64,000 nucleotides of DNA, from the NCBI GenBank assembly GCA_036391995.1, contig DASVYU010000015.1, forward strand, positions 350-64,349, written 5' to 3'. This document shows positions 40,205 through 44,790 of the stretch, piece by piece. Made by a program: the position numbers and the translations under genes. The notes beneath the pieces were generated by a model, which was given only the letters and a program-made list of their open reading frames with translations, was not told where the DNA came from and searched no databases. The stretch's first letter is position 1; each line of letters begins with the position of its first letter. Source of the DNA: Patescibacteria group bacterium. Lineage in GTDB: Bacteria; Patescibacteriota; Minisyncoccia; Moranbacterales; GWC2-37-73.

Positions 40205-41656
40205 TTACAATACACTCATGATCACCATGACCACAAGCGCCACGGCCATAGCCAAAACTCCAAGCCATCCGAAAATCCTGACCCATCCGGGATGACGCTC
40301 TTCTCCCATCACCTTCGGATCATCTCCCACTTTCATAATCAGATAGAGCAAAGGCACCGCGATCACACCATTAAGAAAAGCTGAATAATAAAGGGCAGTA
40401 ATCGGATTGATGCTGAAGAAATTGAAAAGTCCTCCGAAAATGATCGAAAGCGCAATGACAACATAAAATCCTTTAGCTTGAGAGAACTTGAGTTCCAAAC
40501 CCTCATTCCAATTGAGCACCTCAGCCAAAGCATACGCTCCACTGCCTGCCAGCACTGGAATGGCCAACAGTCCTGTGCCTATGATACCCATGGCAAAAAG
40601 TGCTGCCGCATGTTTGCCAGCAAATGGCGCCAATGCCAAGGCTGCATCTTGAGCTGAATCTATATTGGTAATGCCATGAGTGAACAAAACTTGCGCTGTC
40701 GTCAAAACAATGAAGAAGAAAACGACGTTCGCCAAAAGCATTCCGGTATAAACATCTGTGCGCATATGAGTTATGCGATCTCGCATACCGCGCTTCATGT
40801 GTTTGCTGCCAGTCAAAAGCTTGCCCTCTTCCACTTCTTCGGATGCTTGCCAGAAGAAAAGATATGGCGTTATCGTCGTCCCGAAAACTGCCACCATGGC
40901 AAAAAGATAATCCTTGTTTAATGAAAGATGTGGAACAAAAGCATTCTTTAAAACATCAATCCAGTGAGGATTAGCCATGATGCCAGTAGCAATATAAGCA
41001 AAGACAGAAATAGTCAAAAACTTCAGCACTCTCACATAGAGGTGATATTCCACCAATATCTCCAGCAACGTTATCACAGCCGTTAGAACGATTATTATCA
41101 TGTAGAAGCTTACGTTCGTAAACATACCTATGGAAGCAGCCATAGCTCCCAGATCAGCTCCGATATTCACAATGTTAGCAATGAGCAGCAATGTGACAGC
41201 ACTTATCAATACTTTGCGGTTATAGTGAAGTTTCAGCACGCCCGCCAAACCCTTGTTTGTCACAACTCCTATGCGAGCACAAACTTCCTGGATTGCCGTC
41301 ATGACCGGCAAAAGCCAAGCGGCCATCCACAAGATCGAGAGTCCAAAAGCTGCTCCCACAGAAGAATATGTTCCAATACCTCCCGGATCATCATCAGAAG
41401 CCCCGGTCACAAGTCCCGGACCAAGCGCTTTCACAAACAAACGCGCCCTGCTCAGCGGCGTGCCTATGAGTTTCTTGGCGATCGCCACTTCAGGCGCAGC
41501 AATACGGATCGTGCCATCCACTGCCCGCACCACTCCGATTTCACCAAGAACCAACAGTTTCTTGGCCAAGATCAATGGAATGCCCAATTCGCGGCGGAAT
41601 TCCGAAAGAGTGAGGAGCTTGGTTTCATTTCCCGGCTGAGAATTTTGTTTTTCCAT
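40205..41656 (-). CDS. NRAMP-family divalent metal cation transporter with about 60-aa N-terminal extension
   Basis: 483 aa. ALGPGLVTGASDDDPGGIGTYSS matches the Nramp DPGN-region motif; about 11 TMs. Confidence 0.8.
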   Translation of the reverse strand: MEKQNSQPGNETKLLTLSEFRRELGIPLILAKKLLVLGEIGVVRAVDGTIRIAAPEVAIAKKLIGTPLSRARLFVKALGPGLVTGASDDDPGGIGTYSSVGAAFGLSILWMAAWLLPVMTAIQEVCARIGVVTNKGLAGVLKLHYNRKVLISAVTLLLIANIVNIGADLGAMAASIGMFTNVSFYMIIIVLTAVITLLEILVEYHLYVRVLKFLTISVFAYIATGIMANPHWIDVLKNAFVPHLSLNKDYLFAMVAVFGTTITPYLFFWQASEEVEEGKLLTGSKHMKRGMRDRITHMRTDVYTGMLLANVVFFFIVLTTAQVLFTHGITNIDSAQDAALALAPFAGKHAAALFAMGIIGTGLLAIPVLAGSGAYALAEVLNWNEGLELKFSQAKGFYVVIALSIIFGGLFNFFSINPITALYYSAFLNGVIAVPLLYLIMKVGDDPKVMGEERHPGWVRIFGWLGVLAMAVALVVMVIMSVL

Positions 41657-43523: not shown

Positions 43524-43564
43524 AAGCGTCTTCCATATAATTACCTTTTTATTCTAACAAAAAA

Positions 43565-43607
43565 GAGCCTTTTGTACACATGGATTACCACTTTGTACAA
43601 AAGGCTC
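43565..43607 (-). terminator. intrinsic terminator ending the HTH/sigma-r4 two-gene unit
   Basis: 14-bp perfect stem gagccttttgtaca/tgtacaaaaggctc, followed on the minus strand by ttttttgtt. Confidence 0.6.
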
Positions 43608-43612
43608 GAATT

Positions 43613-44221
43613 TCACTCCACAAAGGATTTCAATTTGTAAGCTCGCGATGGATGGCGAAGTTTCCTCATGGCCTTAACAAAAATTTGCCTCACCCTTTGG
43701 GATGTAACATCAAATTCCGGCGCTATGAGTATGAAGCTTTTATTATAATCCTCGCCTCCTATACCAAAATACATTCTAACAATACGTTCCTCACGCGGAG
43801 TTAATGTTGACAGCACAAAATCGATCTTTTCCTTGAGATTGTTCAACTCATATACTTCGTACTGTTCAGGCTCTACAGCAATTTGGGTGCATTTATGAAA
43901 TGATATATGCTCAGCTCTCATTTCAATAGACAGGCTTGTTTTTTCTAGACTGTACAACTCCAAGGGAAAAAGCCAGTCCACATCAACAAAGAAAATATCC
44001 GCCAAACGTTGGCACATAGTCCTATATTTCCCAGTTGTTTTACGAATTGGGGATTTTTTAAGGTTTATGTATAAGCCAAGTTCCGTGTGGCCAAATGCCT
44101 TTTCCTGACAAAAACTTGCAACTGACGGAAAGCTTCCCAAAATGAGATCGAGCAGCCTCTTGTTGTGCAGTGAAATATCCAAGCGAAGCTCGCTTCCGGC
44201 CATTATTTCTTCCTTATTCAT
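43613..44221 (-). CDS. protein with C-terminal sigma-70 region 4 (HTH) domain and unrecognised N-terminal domain
   Basis: 202 aa. C-terminus REERIVRMYFGIGGEDYNKSFILIAPEFDVTSQRVRQIFVKAMRKLRHPSRAYKLKSFVE is a textbook sigma70 r4.2. No regions 2 or 3 are present. Confidence 0.65.
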   Translation of the reverse strand: MNKEEIMAGSELRLDISLHNKRLLDLILGSFPSVASFCQEKAFGHTELGLYINLKKSPIRKTTGKYRTMCQRLADIFFVDVDWLFPLELYSLEKTSLSIEMRAEHISFHKCTQIAVEPEQYEVYELNNLKEKIDFVLSTLTPREERIVRMYFGIGGEDYNKSFILIAPEFDVTSQRVRQIFVKAMRKLRHPSRAYKLKSFVE

Positions 44222-44681
44222 GACTTCCCTCCATTATTTTCATTGGAATTGGTATGCCTGATAGCGGTTCTGTGCAGTAACTTTCCATCAAGGAAATCAG
44301 TTTCGGCAATTCTTCCAATGTCGCAGGTCTTTCTGTTTTTGAACATTTTACCTTTAGGTACATATCGATAGGAAAAAGCTCTTCAACTTCGACATTGAAA
44401 TATTCTGCGATTTTCAATGCTGCATGAATATATTCGCCCGACCTGCCAAACCGGCTATTTTTAGAATGCATTGGAATGATTTTTATATTCAAAAGATCAC
44501 CAATAACATTCTGACCAATGCCGATCTTTCTTGAAAAAGCTGCTACATTAACCCTTCCTTTTCCTCCAAATCCATGCTCCTTCATGAGCCCAAAGAGACG
44601 ATTGTTTCTTGTACATGCTCTTATAAGCACTTCTTCCTGGTGAAGCTGTTCCATGGCGAAATCCTCCTTATCATGATCCAC
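44214..44681 (-). CDS. XRE-family helix-turn-helix protein
   Basis: 155 aa. VNVAAFSRKIGIGQNVIGDLLN ... YIHAALKIAEYFNVEVEELF. Overlaps the downstream gene by 8 nt. Confidence 0.5.
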   Translation of the reverse strand: MDHDKEDFAMEQLHQEEVLIRACTRNNRLFGLMKEHGFGGKGRVNVAAFSRKIGIGQNVIGDLLNIKIIPMHSKNSRFGRSGEYIHAALKIAEYFNVEVEELFPIDMYLKVKCSKTERPATLEELPKLISLMESYCTEPLSGIPIPMKIMEGSHE

Positions 44682-44689
44682 AAAAATGG

Positions 44690-44725
44690 ATGTTTGTTAA
44701 ACAACGCCTTACTCTAGCAAATATC
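44690..44725 (-). promoter_or_regulatory. putative promoter (TTGACA-17 bp-TAGAGT) for the HTH/sigma-r4 unit
   Basis: Minus strand: cTTGACAaagacgatgatatttgcTAGAGTaagg, immediately downstream of the leuS terminator. Confidence 0.45.
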
Positions 44726-44737
44726 ATCGTCTTTGTC

Positions 44738-44768
44738 AAGCAAAAAACCGCCTTAATAGGCGGTTTTT
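44738..44768 (-). terminator. intrinsic terminator after leuS
   Basis: aaaaaaccgcc-ttaata-ggcggtttttt: a perfect 7-bp stem with flanking A and T runs. Confidence 0.7.
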
Positions 44769-44790
44769 TGCTTTAGATAAGCCTAGTTTT

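What the first reader, a model, noticed from the sequence alone, without database searches (positions are those of the whole stretch)
43565..44768. Self-contained two-gene regulatory module: XRE-type HTH protein plus a protein with only sigma-70 region 4
Two overlapping minus-strand genes (155 aa and 202 aa, 8-nt overlap) sit between leuS and a nucleotidyltransferase gene. They have their own TTGACA-17-TAGAGT promoter abutting the leuS terminator and their own very strong terminator, a 14-bp stem plus U6. The first has a Cro/C1-like HTH. The second ends in a textbook sigma70 r4.2 (ERIVRMYFGIGG...TSQRVRQIFVKAMRKLRHPSRAYKLKSFVE) but lacks regions 2 and 3, so it cannot be a complete sigma factor. 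It could act as a -35-binding transcription regulator or as a sigma or anti-sigma mimic. The pairing and insulation suggest a horizontally acquired or phage-derived regulatory cassette.
Basis: partly seen in the sequence, partly recalled or inferred. Interest (0 to 1): 0.55.

Follow-up and report, generated by a model that had tools for sequence, protein, structure and literature searches.

The report
XRE-HTH pair, one fused to sigma domain 4
A small, conserved two-gene operon in a Patescibacteria chromosome encodes two sister helix-turn-helix proteins, one of which carries the last ~90 residues of a housekeeping sigma factor; its single-gene relatives are found mostly in uncultivated phages, and it is most likely an uncharacterised kind of transcription regulator.

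Summary
Two overlapping minus-strand genes sit between leuS and a sugar-nucleotidyltransferase gene. They have a TTGACA-17-TAGAGT promoter and a 14-bp/U6 terminator.

Corrections:
- ORF1 is probably 146 aa (ATG at 44654), not 155.
- ORF2 is not "only region 4". Its N-terminal ~100 residues form an XRE/Cro-type HTH domain paralogous to ORF1.
- Its C-terminal ~90 residues match the extreme C-terminus of RpoD (end of region 3.2 plus sigma4).
- It is not a frameshifted sigma: over 70 distinct proteins share the XRE+sigma4 architecture.

Distribution:
- 38 IMG/VR viral contigs carry the fusion as a single gene, and where neighbours recur across contigs they are DNA-replication genes.
- The ORF1+ORF2 pair is rare, seen in five cellular-looking contigs, but it is strictly co-inherited. 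Four pairs have DNA held.
- Those four share the promoter layout. Three carry an identical TTGTTCTTA box just after the -10, and the window has a related TTGTT-T-AACAA repeat.
- There are no mobile-element genes and no GC anomaly around the module, so it is not a recent insertion.

Best reading: an autoregulated transcription-factor pair in which ORF2 couples an XRE head to a sigma4 head (-35-like DNA or the RNA polymerase beta-flap), and ORF1 is a sigma4-less partner or antagonist. The mechanism is inferred, not shown.

The parts
44738..44773 (-). leuS intrinsic terminator. The stem is 16 bp including A/U tracts, and its 3' arm overlaps the module's -35 by 2 nt.
   Evidence: Inverted repeat I1 is 100% complementary. 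Folding gives dG -25.5 kcal/mol and z -5.8.
44711..44739 (-). Sigma-A-type promoter: TTGACA (44739-44734), a 17-nt spacer with TG, and TAGAGT (44716-44711).
   Evidence: Scan match of 10 of 12 positions. The same -35/17/-10 layout is found in L086, L087 and L089.
44692..44705 (-). Candidate operator or start-site-proximal box, GTTGTTTAACAAAC (TTGTT-T-AACAA inverted repeat), lying 5 nt after the -10.
   Evidence: Orthologous loci carry (A/G)TTGTTCTTA at the same offset. That exact 9-mer occurs once per pair locus (L086, L087 and L089; L090 is the same contig as L087) and only 3 times in the other 86 loci held. The composite pattern has 1 match in the window against 0 in shuffles. Its function is inferred.
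44214..44654 (-). ORF1, 146 aa (155 aa if started at GTG 44681). It has an N-terminal beta-strand, a five-helix XRE/Cro-C1-type HTH, a second beta-strand and a ~40-aa tail (LxxLP motif). It has no sigma domain.
43613..44221 (-). ORF2, 202 aa. Residues ~10-102 are an XRE-type HTH domain paralogous to ORF1. A linker follows. Residues ~113-202 correspond to the end of region 3.2 plus domain sigma4 of a primary sigma factor. Its start overlaps the ORF1 stop by 8 nt.
43559..43607 (-). Module terminator: 14-bp perfect stem, 15-nt loop region with an internal 4-bp helix, then U6.
   Evidence: Inverted repeat I2. Folding gives dG -27.6 kcal/mol and z -6.7, with 0 of 200 shuffles as stable. Equivalent terminators follow the pair in L087 and L089.

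Best explanation
The locus is a functional, vertically conserved operon of a small Patescibacteria lineage, and it encodes a pair of paralogous transcription regulators.

What the proteins are:
- Both have an XRE/Cro-type HTH domain flanked by two beta-strands.
- ORF2 additionally carries the C-terminal ~90 residues of a group-1 sigma factor (domain sigma4).
- ORF2 belongs to an uncharacterised XRE-sigma4 fusion family. That family is found mainly as a single gene in uncultivated phages; where its neighbours recur across contigs they are replication genes.

Proposed mechanism (inferred):
- ORF2 binds DNA through the XRE head.
- It uses the sigma4 head either to read a -35-like hexamer next to that site, or to dock where sigma-A domain 4 normally sits on the RNA polymerase beta-flap. 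Either way it would redirect or block initiation.
- ORF1 is translationally coupled and lacks sigma4. It shares the DNA-binding and probable dimerisation domain, so it would act as a heterodimer partner or as a competitor that occupies the same sites without the polymerase-facing domain.
- The operon is transcribed from a consensus sigma-A promoter. It is probably autoregulated through the conserved TTGTT box at the transcription start.

Shown: gene structure, domain identities, paralogy, conservation of the pair and of its cis layout, and viral distribution of the fusion family.

Inferred: DNA binding, polymerase contact, ORF1-ORF2 interaction and autoregulation.
For: Domain identities:
- Pfam Sigma70_r4 hit. 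The best NCBIfam matches are RpoD models aligned to their last residue, 556-630/631 and 284-370/370.
- Both AF2 models are confident.

Paralogy: BLASTP 28% over 64 aa, E 5e-8, and a shared RxExRxKNN...VGxLLNLKxSP...LFP motif.

Real family:
- 73 distinct N-domain+r4 sequences.
- 38 viral loci carry it as one ORF.
- Recurring neighbours, annotated in locus L013, are DNA polymerase A, an endonuclease, HNH, an ATPase and a nucleotide kinase.

Sigma4 keeps RpoD's functional positions across the family (E. coli numbering and the roles of these positions are from memory, not from a tool). Counts out of 73:
- R554 in 67
- R562 in 67
- R586 in 68
- R588 in 53
- Q589 in 66
- the R596-P601 stretch in 62-69
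- L607 in 59

Pair conservation:
- Five contigs carry it: the window, the P0122 contig, L086, L087 and L089.
- In four contigs the genes overlap by 8-23 nt (window 8, P0122 contig 11, L086 11, L087 23). In L089 there is a 3-nt gap instead.
- Divergence is parallel: ORF2s are 43-54% identical and ORF1s 37-56%, with L086-L089 closest in both.
- Each type is monophyletic in the tree.
- An independent short+long tandem exists in the GC-rich 194-kb viral contig of L022.

Cis layout: the terminator/-35/-10/TTGTT-box arrangement is conserved.
Against: No experiment or co-fold supports DNA binding, beta-flap docking or ORF1-ORF2 interaction.

The window copy of sigma4 has changes at positions that contact -35 DNA in E. 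coli sigma70 (roles from memory):
- R562Y
- E574I
- E575L
- R584S
- E585Q
- E591F

The L087 orthologue also differs at these positions. A canonical TTGACA read-out by this copy is therefore doubtful.

Other weaknesses:
- The TTGTT box in the window differs from the 9-mer shared by the other three loci.
- That 9-mer pattern is not enriched elsewhere in the window, so no regulon is visible.
- No repeated intergenic motif was found in the phage loci.
Confidence: 0.6

Rival explanations
1. Sigma4 decoy or competitor. ORF2 does not act as a site-specific regulator. Instead it titrates whatever normally binds sigma-A domain 4: the beta-flap tip, -35 elements genome-wide, or sigma4-binding proteins. 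Those proteins could include phage anti-sigma factors of the AsiA or ORF67 type, which would give global shut-off in phages or protection from phage factors in the cell. ORF1 would buffer it.
Against: A conserved XRE HTH domain, with a VGxLxN recognition-helix signature resembling lambda cI and P22 c2 (resemblance from memory), argues for site-specific DNA binding. It is fused in every family member. The MzaA match is 63 bits against a cutoff of 800 and covers only sigma4. No defence genes lie nearby.
Confidence: 0.15
2. C-terminal half of a split (two-subunit) sigma factor, as in B. subtilis SigO-RsoA. ORF2 would supply -35 recognition and a separate polypeptide would supply the sigma2 (-10/core-binding) function.
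For: A precedent exists for sigma2 and sigma4 on separate co-expressed polypeptides (PMC7826278). ORF2 starts its sigma homology at the end of region 3.2, as a natural break point would. In L088 the N-domain and sigma4 are themselves separate ORFs.
Confidence: 0.07
3. A decaying remnant: a pseudogenised fragment of rpoD or of a prophage regulator, with no present function.
For: The window sigma4 is more diverged at DNA-contact positions than most relatives. The pair is very rare. It is absent from 185,579 GTDB representative genomes at the pattern level, and one JGI metagenome contig carries it.
Against: Both ORFs are intact with good RBSs. The pair is kept, with overlap or near-abutment, its promoter and (where downstream sequence is held: the window, L087 and L089) a terminator, across loci whose proteins are only 37-56% identical. 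The AF2 models are confident. The N-terminal half is not sigma-derived, so no frameshift of rpoD can produce it.
Confidence: 0.03
4. A toxin-antitoxin or similar addiction module, with ORF1 as an XRE-type antitoxin.
For: Two small overlapping genes with their own promoter. HigA and HipB antitoxins are among the ORF1 fold matches.
Against: ORF2 has no toxin-like domain and is itself an HTH protein paralogous to ORF1. PADLOC gave nothing except the sigma4 match. ORF2-type genes usually occur alone.
Confidence: 0.03

Closest known systems
Domain sigma4 (regions 4.1-4.2) of primary sigma factors (RpoD/SigA)
   Different: There are no sigma1.1, sigma2 or sigma3 domains, and the N-terminal half is an XRE HTH. 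It therefore cannot open promoters or act as a sigma factor alone. The window copy has R562Y, E574I, E575L, R584S and E585Q.
[quoted passage not shown]
   Same: Sigma-derived function is carried by two small co-expressed polypeptides, one of them holding sigma4 (PMC7826278, read).
   Different: The partner here (ORF1) is an XRE-fold paralogue of ORF2's own N-domain, not a sigma2-like protein. ORF2's sigma4 is group-1-like rather than ECF-like.
RinA/ArpU-type phage late-gene activators
   Same: These are small phage-associated transcription factors whose C-terminal half resembles sigma region 4. For RinA the authors left open whether that region is a DNA-recognition or a protein-interaction module (PMC3152322).
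   Different: The listed NCBIfam and PHROG matches are sigma-factor families, apart from one weak hit to phrog_36 'transcriptional regulator', E 0.002. No RinA or ArpU name appears. The N-domain is XRE-type. In the viral groups with recurring neighbours, those neighbours are replication genes, whereas RinA-type genes are described as lying upstream of the morphogenetic cluster. The sigma4 similarity here is strong rather than 'limited'.
XRE/Cro-cI repressors, and the SinR-SinI paralogue-antagonist pair
   Different: Pfam HTH_3/HTH_26 scores for the two window proteins are below threshold. Extra flanking beta-strands and a hairpin insertion are present. The short paralogue keeps the HTH and lacks the effector (sigma4) domain, which is the opposite of SinI (the description of SinI is from memory).
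Phage factors that take over the sigma4/beta-flap site (T4 AsiA-MotA, T4 gp33, P23-45 gp39)
   Same: The biological logic is comparable: a phage-encoded protein re-routing host RNA polymerase through the sigma4/beta-flap position (papers listed; not read in detail).
   Different: There is no sequence or fold relationship. Here the protein is itself a sigma4 domain rather than a binder of it. This is analogy only and was not tested.

Membership tests
Sigma-70 family sigma factor (complete) | Sigma2 domain (regions 2.1-2.4: core binding, -10 recognition) | tested here: not met
   There is no Sigma70_r2 hit for ORF1 or ORF2. The N-domain fold is XRE-type. All NCBIfam sigma models score far below their cutoffs, for example 81 against 555.
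Sigma-70 family sigma factor (complete) | Sigma4 domain (regions 4.1-4.2 HTH) | tested here: met
XRE / Cro-C1 HTH family (Pfam HTH_3, HTH_26 clan) | Five-helix lambda-repressor-like fold with HTH | tested here: met
XRE / Cro-C1 HTH family (Pfam HTH_3, HTH_26 clan) | Sequence score above Pfam gathering threshold | tested here: not met
   ORF1 scores 12 bits against cutoffs of 22-23, and ORF2 has no hit. Only 3 of 24 family members match HTH_26 and 3 of 24 match HTH_3 at E<=0.01. This is a divergent branch of the fold.
XRE / Cro-C1 HTH family (Pfam HTH_3, HTH_26 clan) | Sequence-specific operator binding | not testable with these tools
   The only lead is the conserved TTGTT box at the operon's own promoter.
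SigO-RsoA-type two-subunit sigma | Partner polypeptide with a sigma2 / region 2.3-like segment | tested here: not met
   ORF1 has an XRE fold with no sigma hit. No sigma-related ORF lies elsewhere in the window.
RinA / ArpU phage late activators | Sequence membership in the curated family models | tested here: not met
   The best 25 of 31 NCBIfam matches shown are all sigma-factor models. PHROG matches are phrog_351 'sigma factor', plus phrog_36 'transcriptional regulator' at E 0.002 and one family of unknown function.
RinA / ArpU phage late activators | Gene located directly upstream of the packaging/morphogenesis cluster | tested here: not met
   The recurring neighbours in viral loci are DNA polymerase A, an endonuclease, HNH, an ATPase and a nucleotide kinase.
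MzaA (MZA anti-phage system sigma factor) | Full-length match above the curated cutoff | tested here: not met
   68 bits against a cutoff of 800, covering the sigma4 end only. PADLOC gives 63 bits over residues 128-202.
Type II toxin-antitoxin module with XRE antitoxin | A toxin-domain partner | tested here: not met
   ORF2 is an HTH plus sigma4, with no toxin family in Pfam, NCBIfam or PADLOC.

The most novel reading that the evidence does not exclude
The XRE-sigma4 proteins are a previously unrecognised class of "domain-4 substitutes". The detached primary-sigma domain 4 would dock on the RNA polymerase beta-flap in place of sigma-A's own domain 4. Upstream promoter recognition would then be handed to the fused XRE head, giving a one-protein equivalent of T4 AsiA+MotA sigma appropriation. 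This would be used by many uncultivated phages and domesticated in a Patescibacteria lineage, where a sigma4-less paralogue (ORF1) acts as its built-in antagonist. The independent origin of a short+long tandem in a 194-kb viral contig (L022) would then reflect a recurrent regulatory solution.
Probability: 0.15. Interest if true: 0.8.

Novelty: new variant of a known kind. Interest (0 to 1): 0.5.

Why it matters
Patescibacteria have few recognisable regulators, and how their phages control host RNA polymerase is essentially unknown.

A primary-sigma domain 4 that has been cut loose, fused to an XRE head and spread through dozens of uncultivated phages is a plausible new way of re-programming or blocking promoter recognition. 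The chromosomal operon, with its sigma4-less paralogue, offers a compact and testable system of two small proteins and one promoter.

If instead it is just a bipartite DNA-binding repressor, it is still the first anatomy of a domain-annotated but unstudied family. It would also correct the "sigma factor" labels some of these proteins carry in databases.

Tried and rejected
Hypotheses tested and rejected:
- Frameshifted or pseudogenised sigma. The N-terminal half has an XRE fold, and the architecture recurs in more than 70 proteins.
- Split sigma with ORF1 as sigma2. ORF1 has an XRE fold.
- Recent insertion or prophage. There is no GC anomaly and no mobile-element or phage genes within about 8 kb.

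Searches that found nothing useful:
- Paralogues elsewhere in the window: none.
- Cultured-phage relatives: only rpoD-like sigma4 matches for ORF2, with no full-length relative, and nothing for ORF1.
- GTDB genome scans. The single-protein scan and the A5 scan found nothing.
- JGI metagenome scan with ORF1-type alignment A5: it returned only the contig already held as L087.
- IMG/VR scan with A5: nothing.
- Profile search of the N-domain in the 5.8-billion-protein set. It was limited by its word index to 13 hits and is not a usable family census.
- The look-up of ORF2's own sequence (P0001) in the assembly index found no record.

Motif and RNA searches:
- TTGTTYTWA in the window: 7 found against 4.2 expected, so not enriched. 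The window's own box does not fit this pattern.
- Repeated 9-mers in intergenic DNA of 28 family loci (27 IMG/VR, plus phage-like L002): none.
- Rfam on the region: only sub-threshold terminator-like matches.

Other:
- The afdb50 fold library was unavailable.
- PMC2795558, the SigO-RsoA primary paper, is not held.
Full report
**1. What is in the sequence**

The window carries two minus-strand ORFs at the stated place. ORF2 is 43613-44221, 202 aa. ORF1 is 44214-44681, 155 aa if started at a GTG.

ORF1 more likely starts at the ATG at 44654, giving 146 aa. An AAGGAGG lies 8 nt upstream. NCBI's annotation of the same contig gives a 146-aa product (P0121). The homologues start at the equivalent Met.

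The ORF2 start overlaps the ORF1 stop by 8 nt (ATGAATAA) and has its own GGAGG. This layout is consistent with translational coupling.

The upstream gene is leuS (TIGR00396, 1077 bits). The downstream genes encode a sugar-1-phosphate nucleotidyltransferase and YvcK.

The leuS terminator has 16-nt perfect arms and dG -25.5. It abuts a TTGACA-17-TAGAGT promoter. The module ends in a 14-bp stem plus U6 with dG -27.6 and z -6.7.

The organism is a Patescibacteria (CPR) MAG, according to the names NCBI gives the two proteins.

**2. What the proteins are**

*The sigma part of ORF2.*
- Residues 136-190 pass Pfam Sigma70_r4.
- The best NCBIfam alignments are to RpoD models and run to their very last position. 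Residues 127-202 align to 556-630 of 631, and residues 113-202 to 284-370 of 370.
- The sigma-derived part is therefore the last ~90 residues of a group-1 sigma: the end of region 3.2 plus sigma4.
- No region 2 or region 3 is detected.

*The N-terminal half of ORF2.*
- It is not anonymous. It is paralogous to ORF1, at 28% identity over 64 aa with E 5e-8 in a pairwise test.
- Both proteins share the motif RxExRxKNN...VGxLLNLKxSP...LFP.

*Predicted structures.*
- AlphaFold models built on family alignments are confident, with pLDDT 85.9 for ORF2 and 87.3 for ORF1.
- Both show a beta-strand, a five-helix HTH bundle with a hairpin insertion, and a second beta-strand.

ORF2 is an XRE-HTH/sigma4 fusion rather than a protein with only region 4.

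**3. Not a broken sigma factor**

- A search of 5.8 billion proteins returned a set of ~195-230-aa proteins covering more than 90% of ORF2. Their alignment shows both domains.
- HMMs I built for each domain found the same one-ORF architecture in 38 IMG/VR viral loci.
- In all there are 73 distinct N-domain+sigma4 sequences.
- A frameshift in rpoD cannot generate an XRE domain.

**4. Where the family lives**

*Viral contexts.*
- Viral loci of 5-194 kb carry the fusion among many small ORFs.
- The neighbours that recur across several related contig groups are DNA polymerase A, an endonuclease VII/resolvase-like protein, an HNH protein, an ATPase and a nucleotide kinase. That places the gene in replication modules in those groups.
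- Two Logan contigs (L002, L003) also look phage-like, with P22_Cro, HNH, DUF551 and PIF1.
- No full-length relative exists in 50,697 deposited phage records.
- PHROGs only recognises the sigma4 end.
- BFVD contains at least one 200-aa relative from an uncultured marine virus. It also holds many sigma4-only small proteins from uncultured phages, annotated by domain only.

*Cellular contexts.* Some single-gene members sit in cellular-looking contigs (L001, L005).

**5. The pair**

*Occurrence.*
- ORF1-type proteins (N-domain plus an LxxLP tail, with no sigma4) are very rare.
- An exhaustive phmmer scan of 1.84 billion representatives gave only P0122, P0123 and P0124 as close relatives.
- Each is immediately followed by an ORF2-type Sigma70_r4 gene.
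- The gene upstream of P0141, an ORF2-type protein, is also ORF1-type.
- That makes five contigs, with overlaps of 8, 11 (P0122 contig), 11 (L086) and 23 nt, or a 3-nt gap.

*Inheritance.*
- In a neighbour-joining tree of N-domains the ORF1-types form one clade and their partners another.
- Identities diverge in parallel: ORF2s are 43-54% identical and ORF1s 37-56%, and L086-L089 is the closest pair in both.
- The duplication therefore predates these lineages, and the two genes have been inherited together.

*What the scans did not find.*
- The pair was not found in GTDB representative genomes or in IMG/VR.
- It was found once in JGI metagenomes.

*Related arrangements.*
- A short+long tandem also exists in the GC-rich 194-kb viral contig of L022. 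Its two copies are each other's closest relatives, which indicates an independent duplication.
- In L088 the N-domain and sigma4 are separate overlapping ORFs.

**6. Cis elements**

All four pair loci with DNA share one layout:
- an upstream terminator;
- TTGAC(A/T);
- a 17-nt spacer;
- a TAnAnN -10 hexamer (TAGAGT, TATATA, TATAAT, TATAAG);
- 5 nt;
- (G/A)TTGTT.

L086, L087 and L089 share the exact 9-mer TTGTTCTTA there. It occurs once per locus, against three chance copies in the other 86 loci held. The window has GTTGTTTAACAAAC at that position, containing a TTGTT-T-AACAA inverted repeat. Strong terminators also follow the pair in L087 and L089.

With proteins this diverged, a fixed element at the transcription start is best explained as functional. 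The obvious candidate is an autoregulatory operator. This is inference.

**7. Sigma4 conservation**

I aligned the family to E. coli sigma70 residues 540-613. The reference sequence, its numbering and the roles of its residues come from my memory, not from a tool. Counts below are out of 73.
- R554 is kept in 67.
- R562 is kept in 67.
- Position 584 is R in 31 and K in 20.
- E585 is kept in 47.
- R586 is kept in 68.
- R588 is kept in 53.
- Q589 is kept in 66.
- The R596-P601 stretch is kept in 62-69.
- L607 is kept in 59.

This level of retention, in a family only ~25% identical overall, suggests RpoD-like contacts are still in use. Those contacts could be with -35 DNA, the beta-flap, or both.

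The window copy is atypical. It has R562Y, E574I, E575L, R584S, E585Q and E591F. L087 also differs. These chromosomal copies may therefore read a different hexamer or rely mainly on protein contacts.

**8. Context and origin**

- GC around the module is 0.41, like its surroundings.
- Neighbours are FolD, an ABC transporter, TGT, Nramp, PAP2, a Mur ligase and Ddl. There is no integrase and there are no phage genes.
- "Phage-related family" is supported. "Recently acquired cassette" is not.
- The direction of transfer, phage to cell or cell to phage, is undetermined.

**9. Mechanism**

*Best-supported reading (confidence about 0.6 at the level of "a conserved, autoregulated transcription-factor pair").*
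- ORF2 binds DNA through its XRE head.
- It uses sigma4 either on an adjacent -35-like hexamer or on the beta-flap of RNA polymerase.
- ORF1 is co-translated and lacks sigma4. It would heterodimerise with ORF2 or compete for the same sites, giving an activator/repressor or active/inactive balance.

*Rivals.*
- A sigma4 decoy (0.15).
- The C-terminal half of a split sigma like SigO-RsoA (0.07). This is disfavoured because ORF1 is not sigma2-like.
- A decaying remnant (0.03).
- A toxin-antitoxin module (0.03).

None of the protein-DNA or protein-protein steps could be tested with these tools.

**10. Comparison with known systems and novelty**

- It works with known parts, an XRE HTH and an RpoD sigma4.
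- It fails the membership tests for a sigma factor (no sigma2), for SigO-RsoA (the partner is not sigma2), for RinA/ArpU (no family match, different genomic position) and for MzaA.
- RinA is the nearest functional analogue. It is a phage activator whose C-terminal half resembles region 4, and its authors could not decide between a DNA-binding and a protein-interaction role.
- My paper searches found no description of an XRE-sigma4 fusion or of this operon. That is absence in the held library only.
- Databases label the proteins by domain, for example "sigma factor-like helix-turn-helix DNA-binding protein".
- I rate it a new variant of a known kind, with interest 0.5. It is a clean, testable and apparently unstudied regulator family with a plausible but unproven link to re-programming of RNA polymerase by phages.

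Noticed in passing
window 44692-44705 (-); L086 284-292; L087 1987-1995; L089 2648-2656: A conserved box lies 5 nt downstream of the -10 of the pair's promoter. It is TTGTTCTTA in three loci and GTTGTTTAACAAAC in the window. It may be an operator or a start-site element.
   Followed up: partly
L022 5423-5872 and 5869-6462 (IMG/VR UViG_3300031949_000004, 194 kb, GC-rich): A separate tandem of an N-domain-only ORF (149 aa) and an N-domain+sigma4 ORF (197 aa) overlapping by 4 nt. The two copies are each other's closest relatives, so the short+long arrangement seems to have arisen twice.
   Followed up: partly
L088 578-1012 and 997-1098 (ENA contig, 1.1 kb): Here the N-domain (P0130, 144 aa) and the sigma4 part (starting MLKTLTENEETALRMYYG...) are separate overlapping ORFs. 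This could be a genuine split or a frameshift or assembly error.
   Followed up: no
P0064 (286 aa): This protein is made of three tandem sigma4-like repeats (LxxLxPR[DE]ExIVxMYYG...VRxIL) with no other domain. It is another odd use of detached sigma4.
   Followed up: no
P0004 cluster (337-338 aa, 61 members) and P0003, P0057, L008/L009, L058: Some family members carry 100-350-aa C-terminal extensions after sigma4, with no Pfam hit. The extensions do not look alike across these groups.
   Followed up: no
window 43551-43578 (-): A promoter-like TGTACA-16-TAGAAT (with TG) is embedded in the descending arm and U-tract of the module terminator, just upstream of the nucleotidyltransferase gene. It may restart transcription after the terminator.
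   Followed up: no
window 40205-41656 (-): The Nramp-family transporter has a ~90-residue N-terminal extension before the Pfam Nramp match (which covers residues 95-453). By eye the extension looks like a small HTH or excisionase-like segment (LTLSEFRRELGIPLILAKKLL...). This was not checked.
   Followed up: no
BFVD hits (e.g. A0A6J5LJJ3, A0A6J5LKM7, A0A6J5S254): Many 90-140-aa sigma4-only proteins are annotated in uncultured Caudovirales. Detached sigma4 domains appear to be common in phages generally.
   Followed up: no
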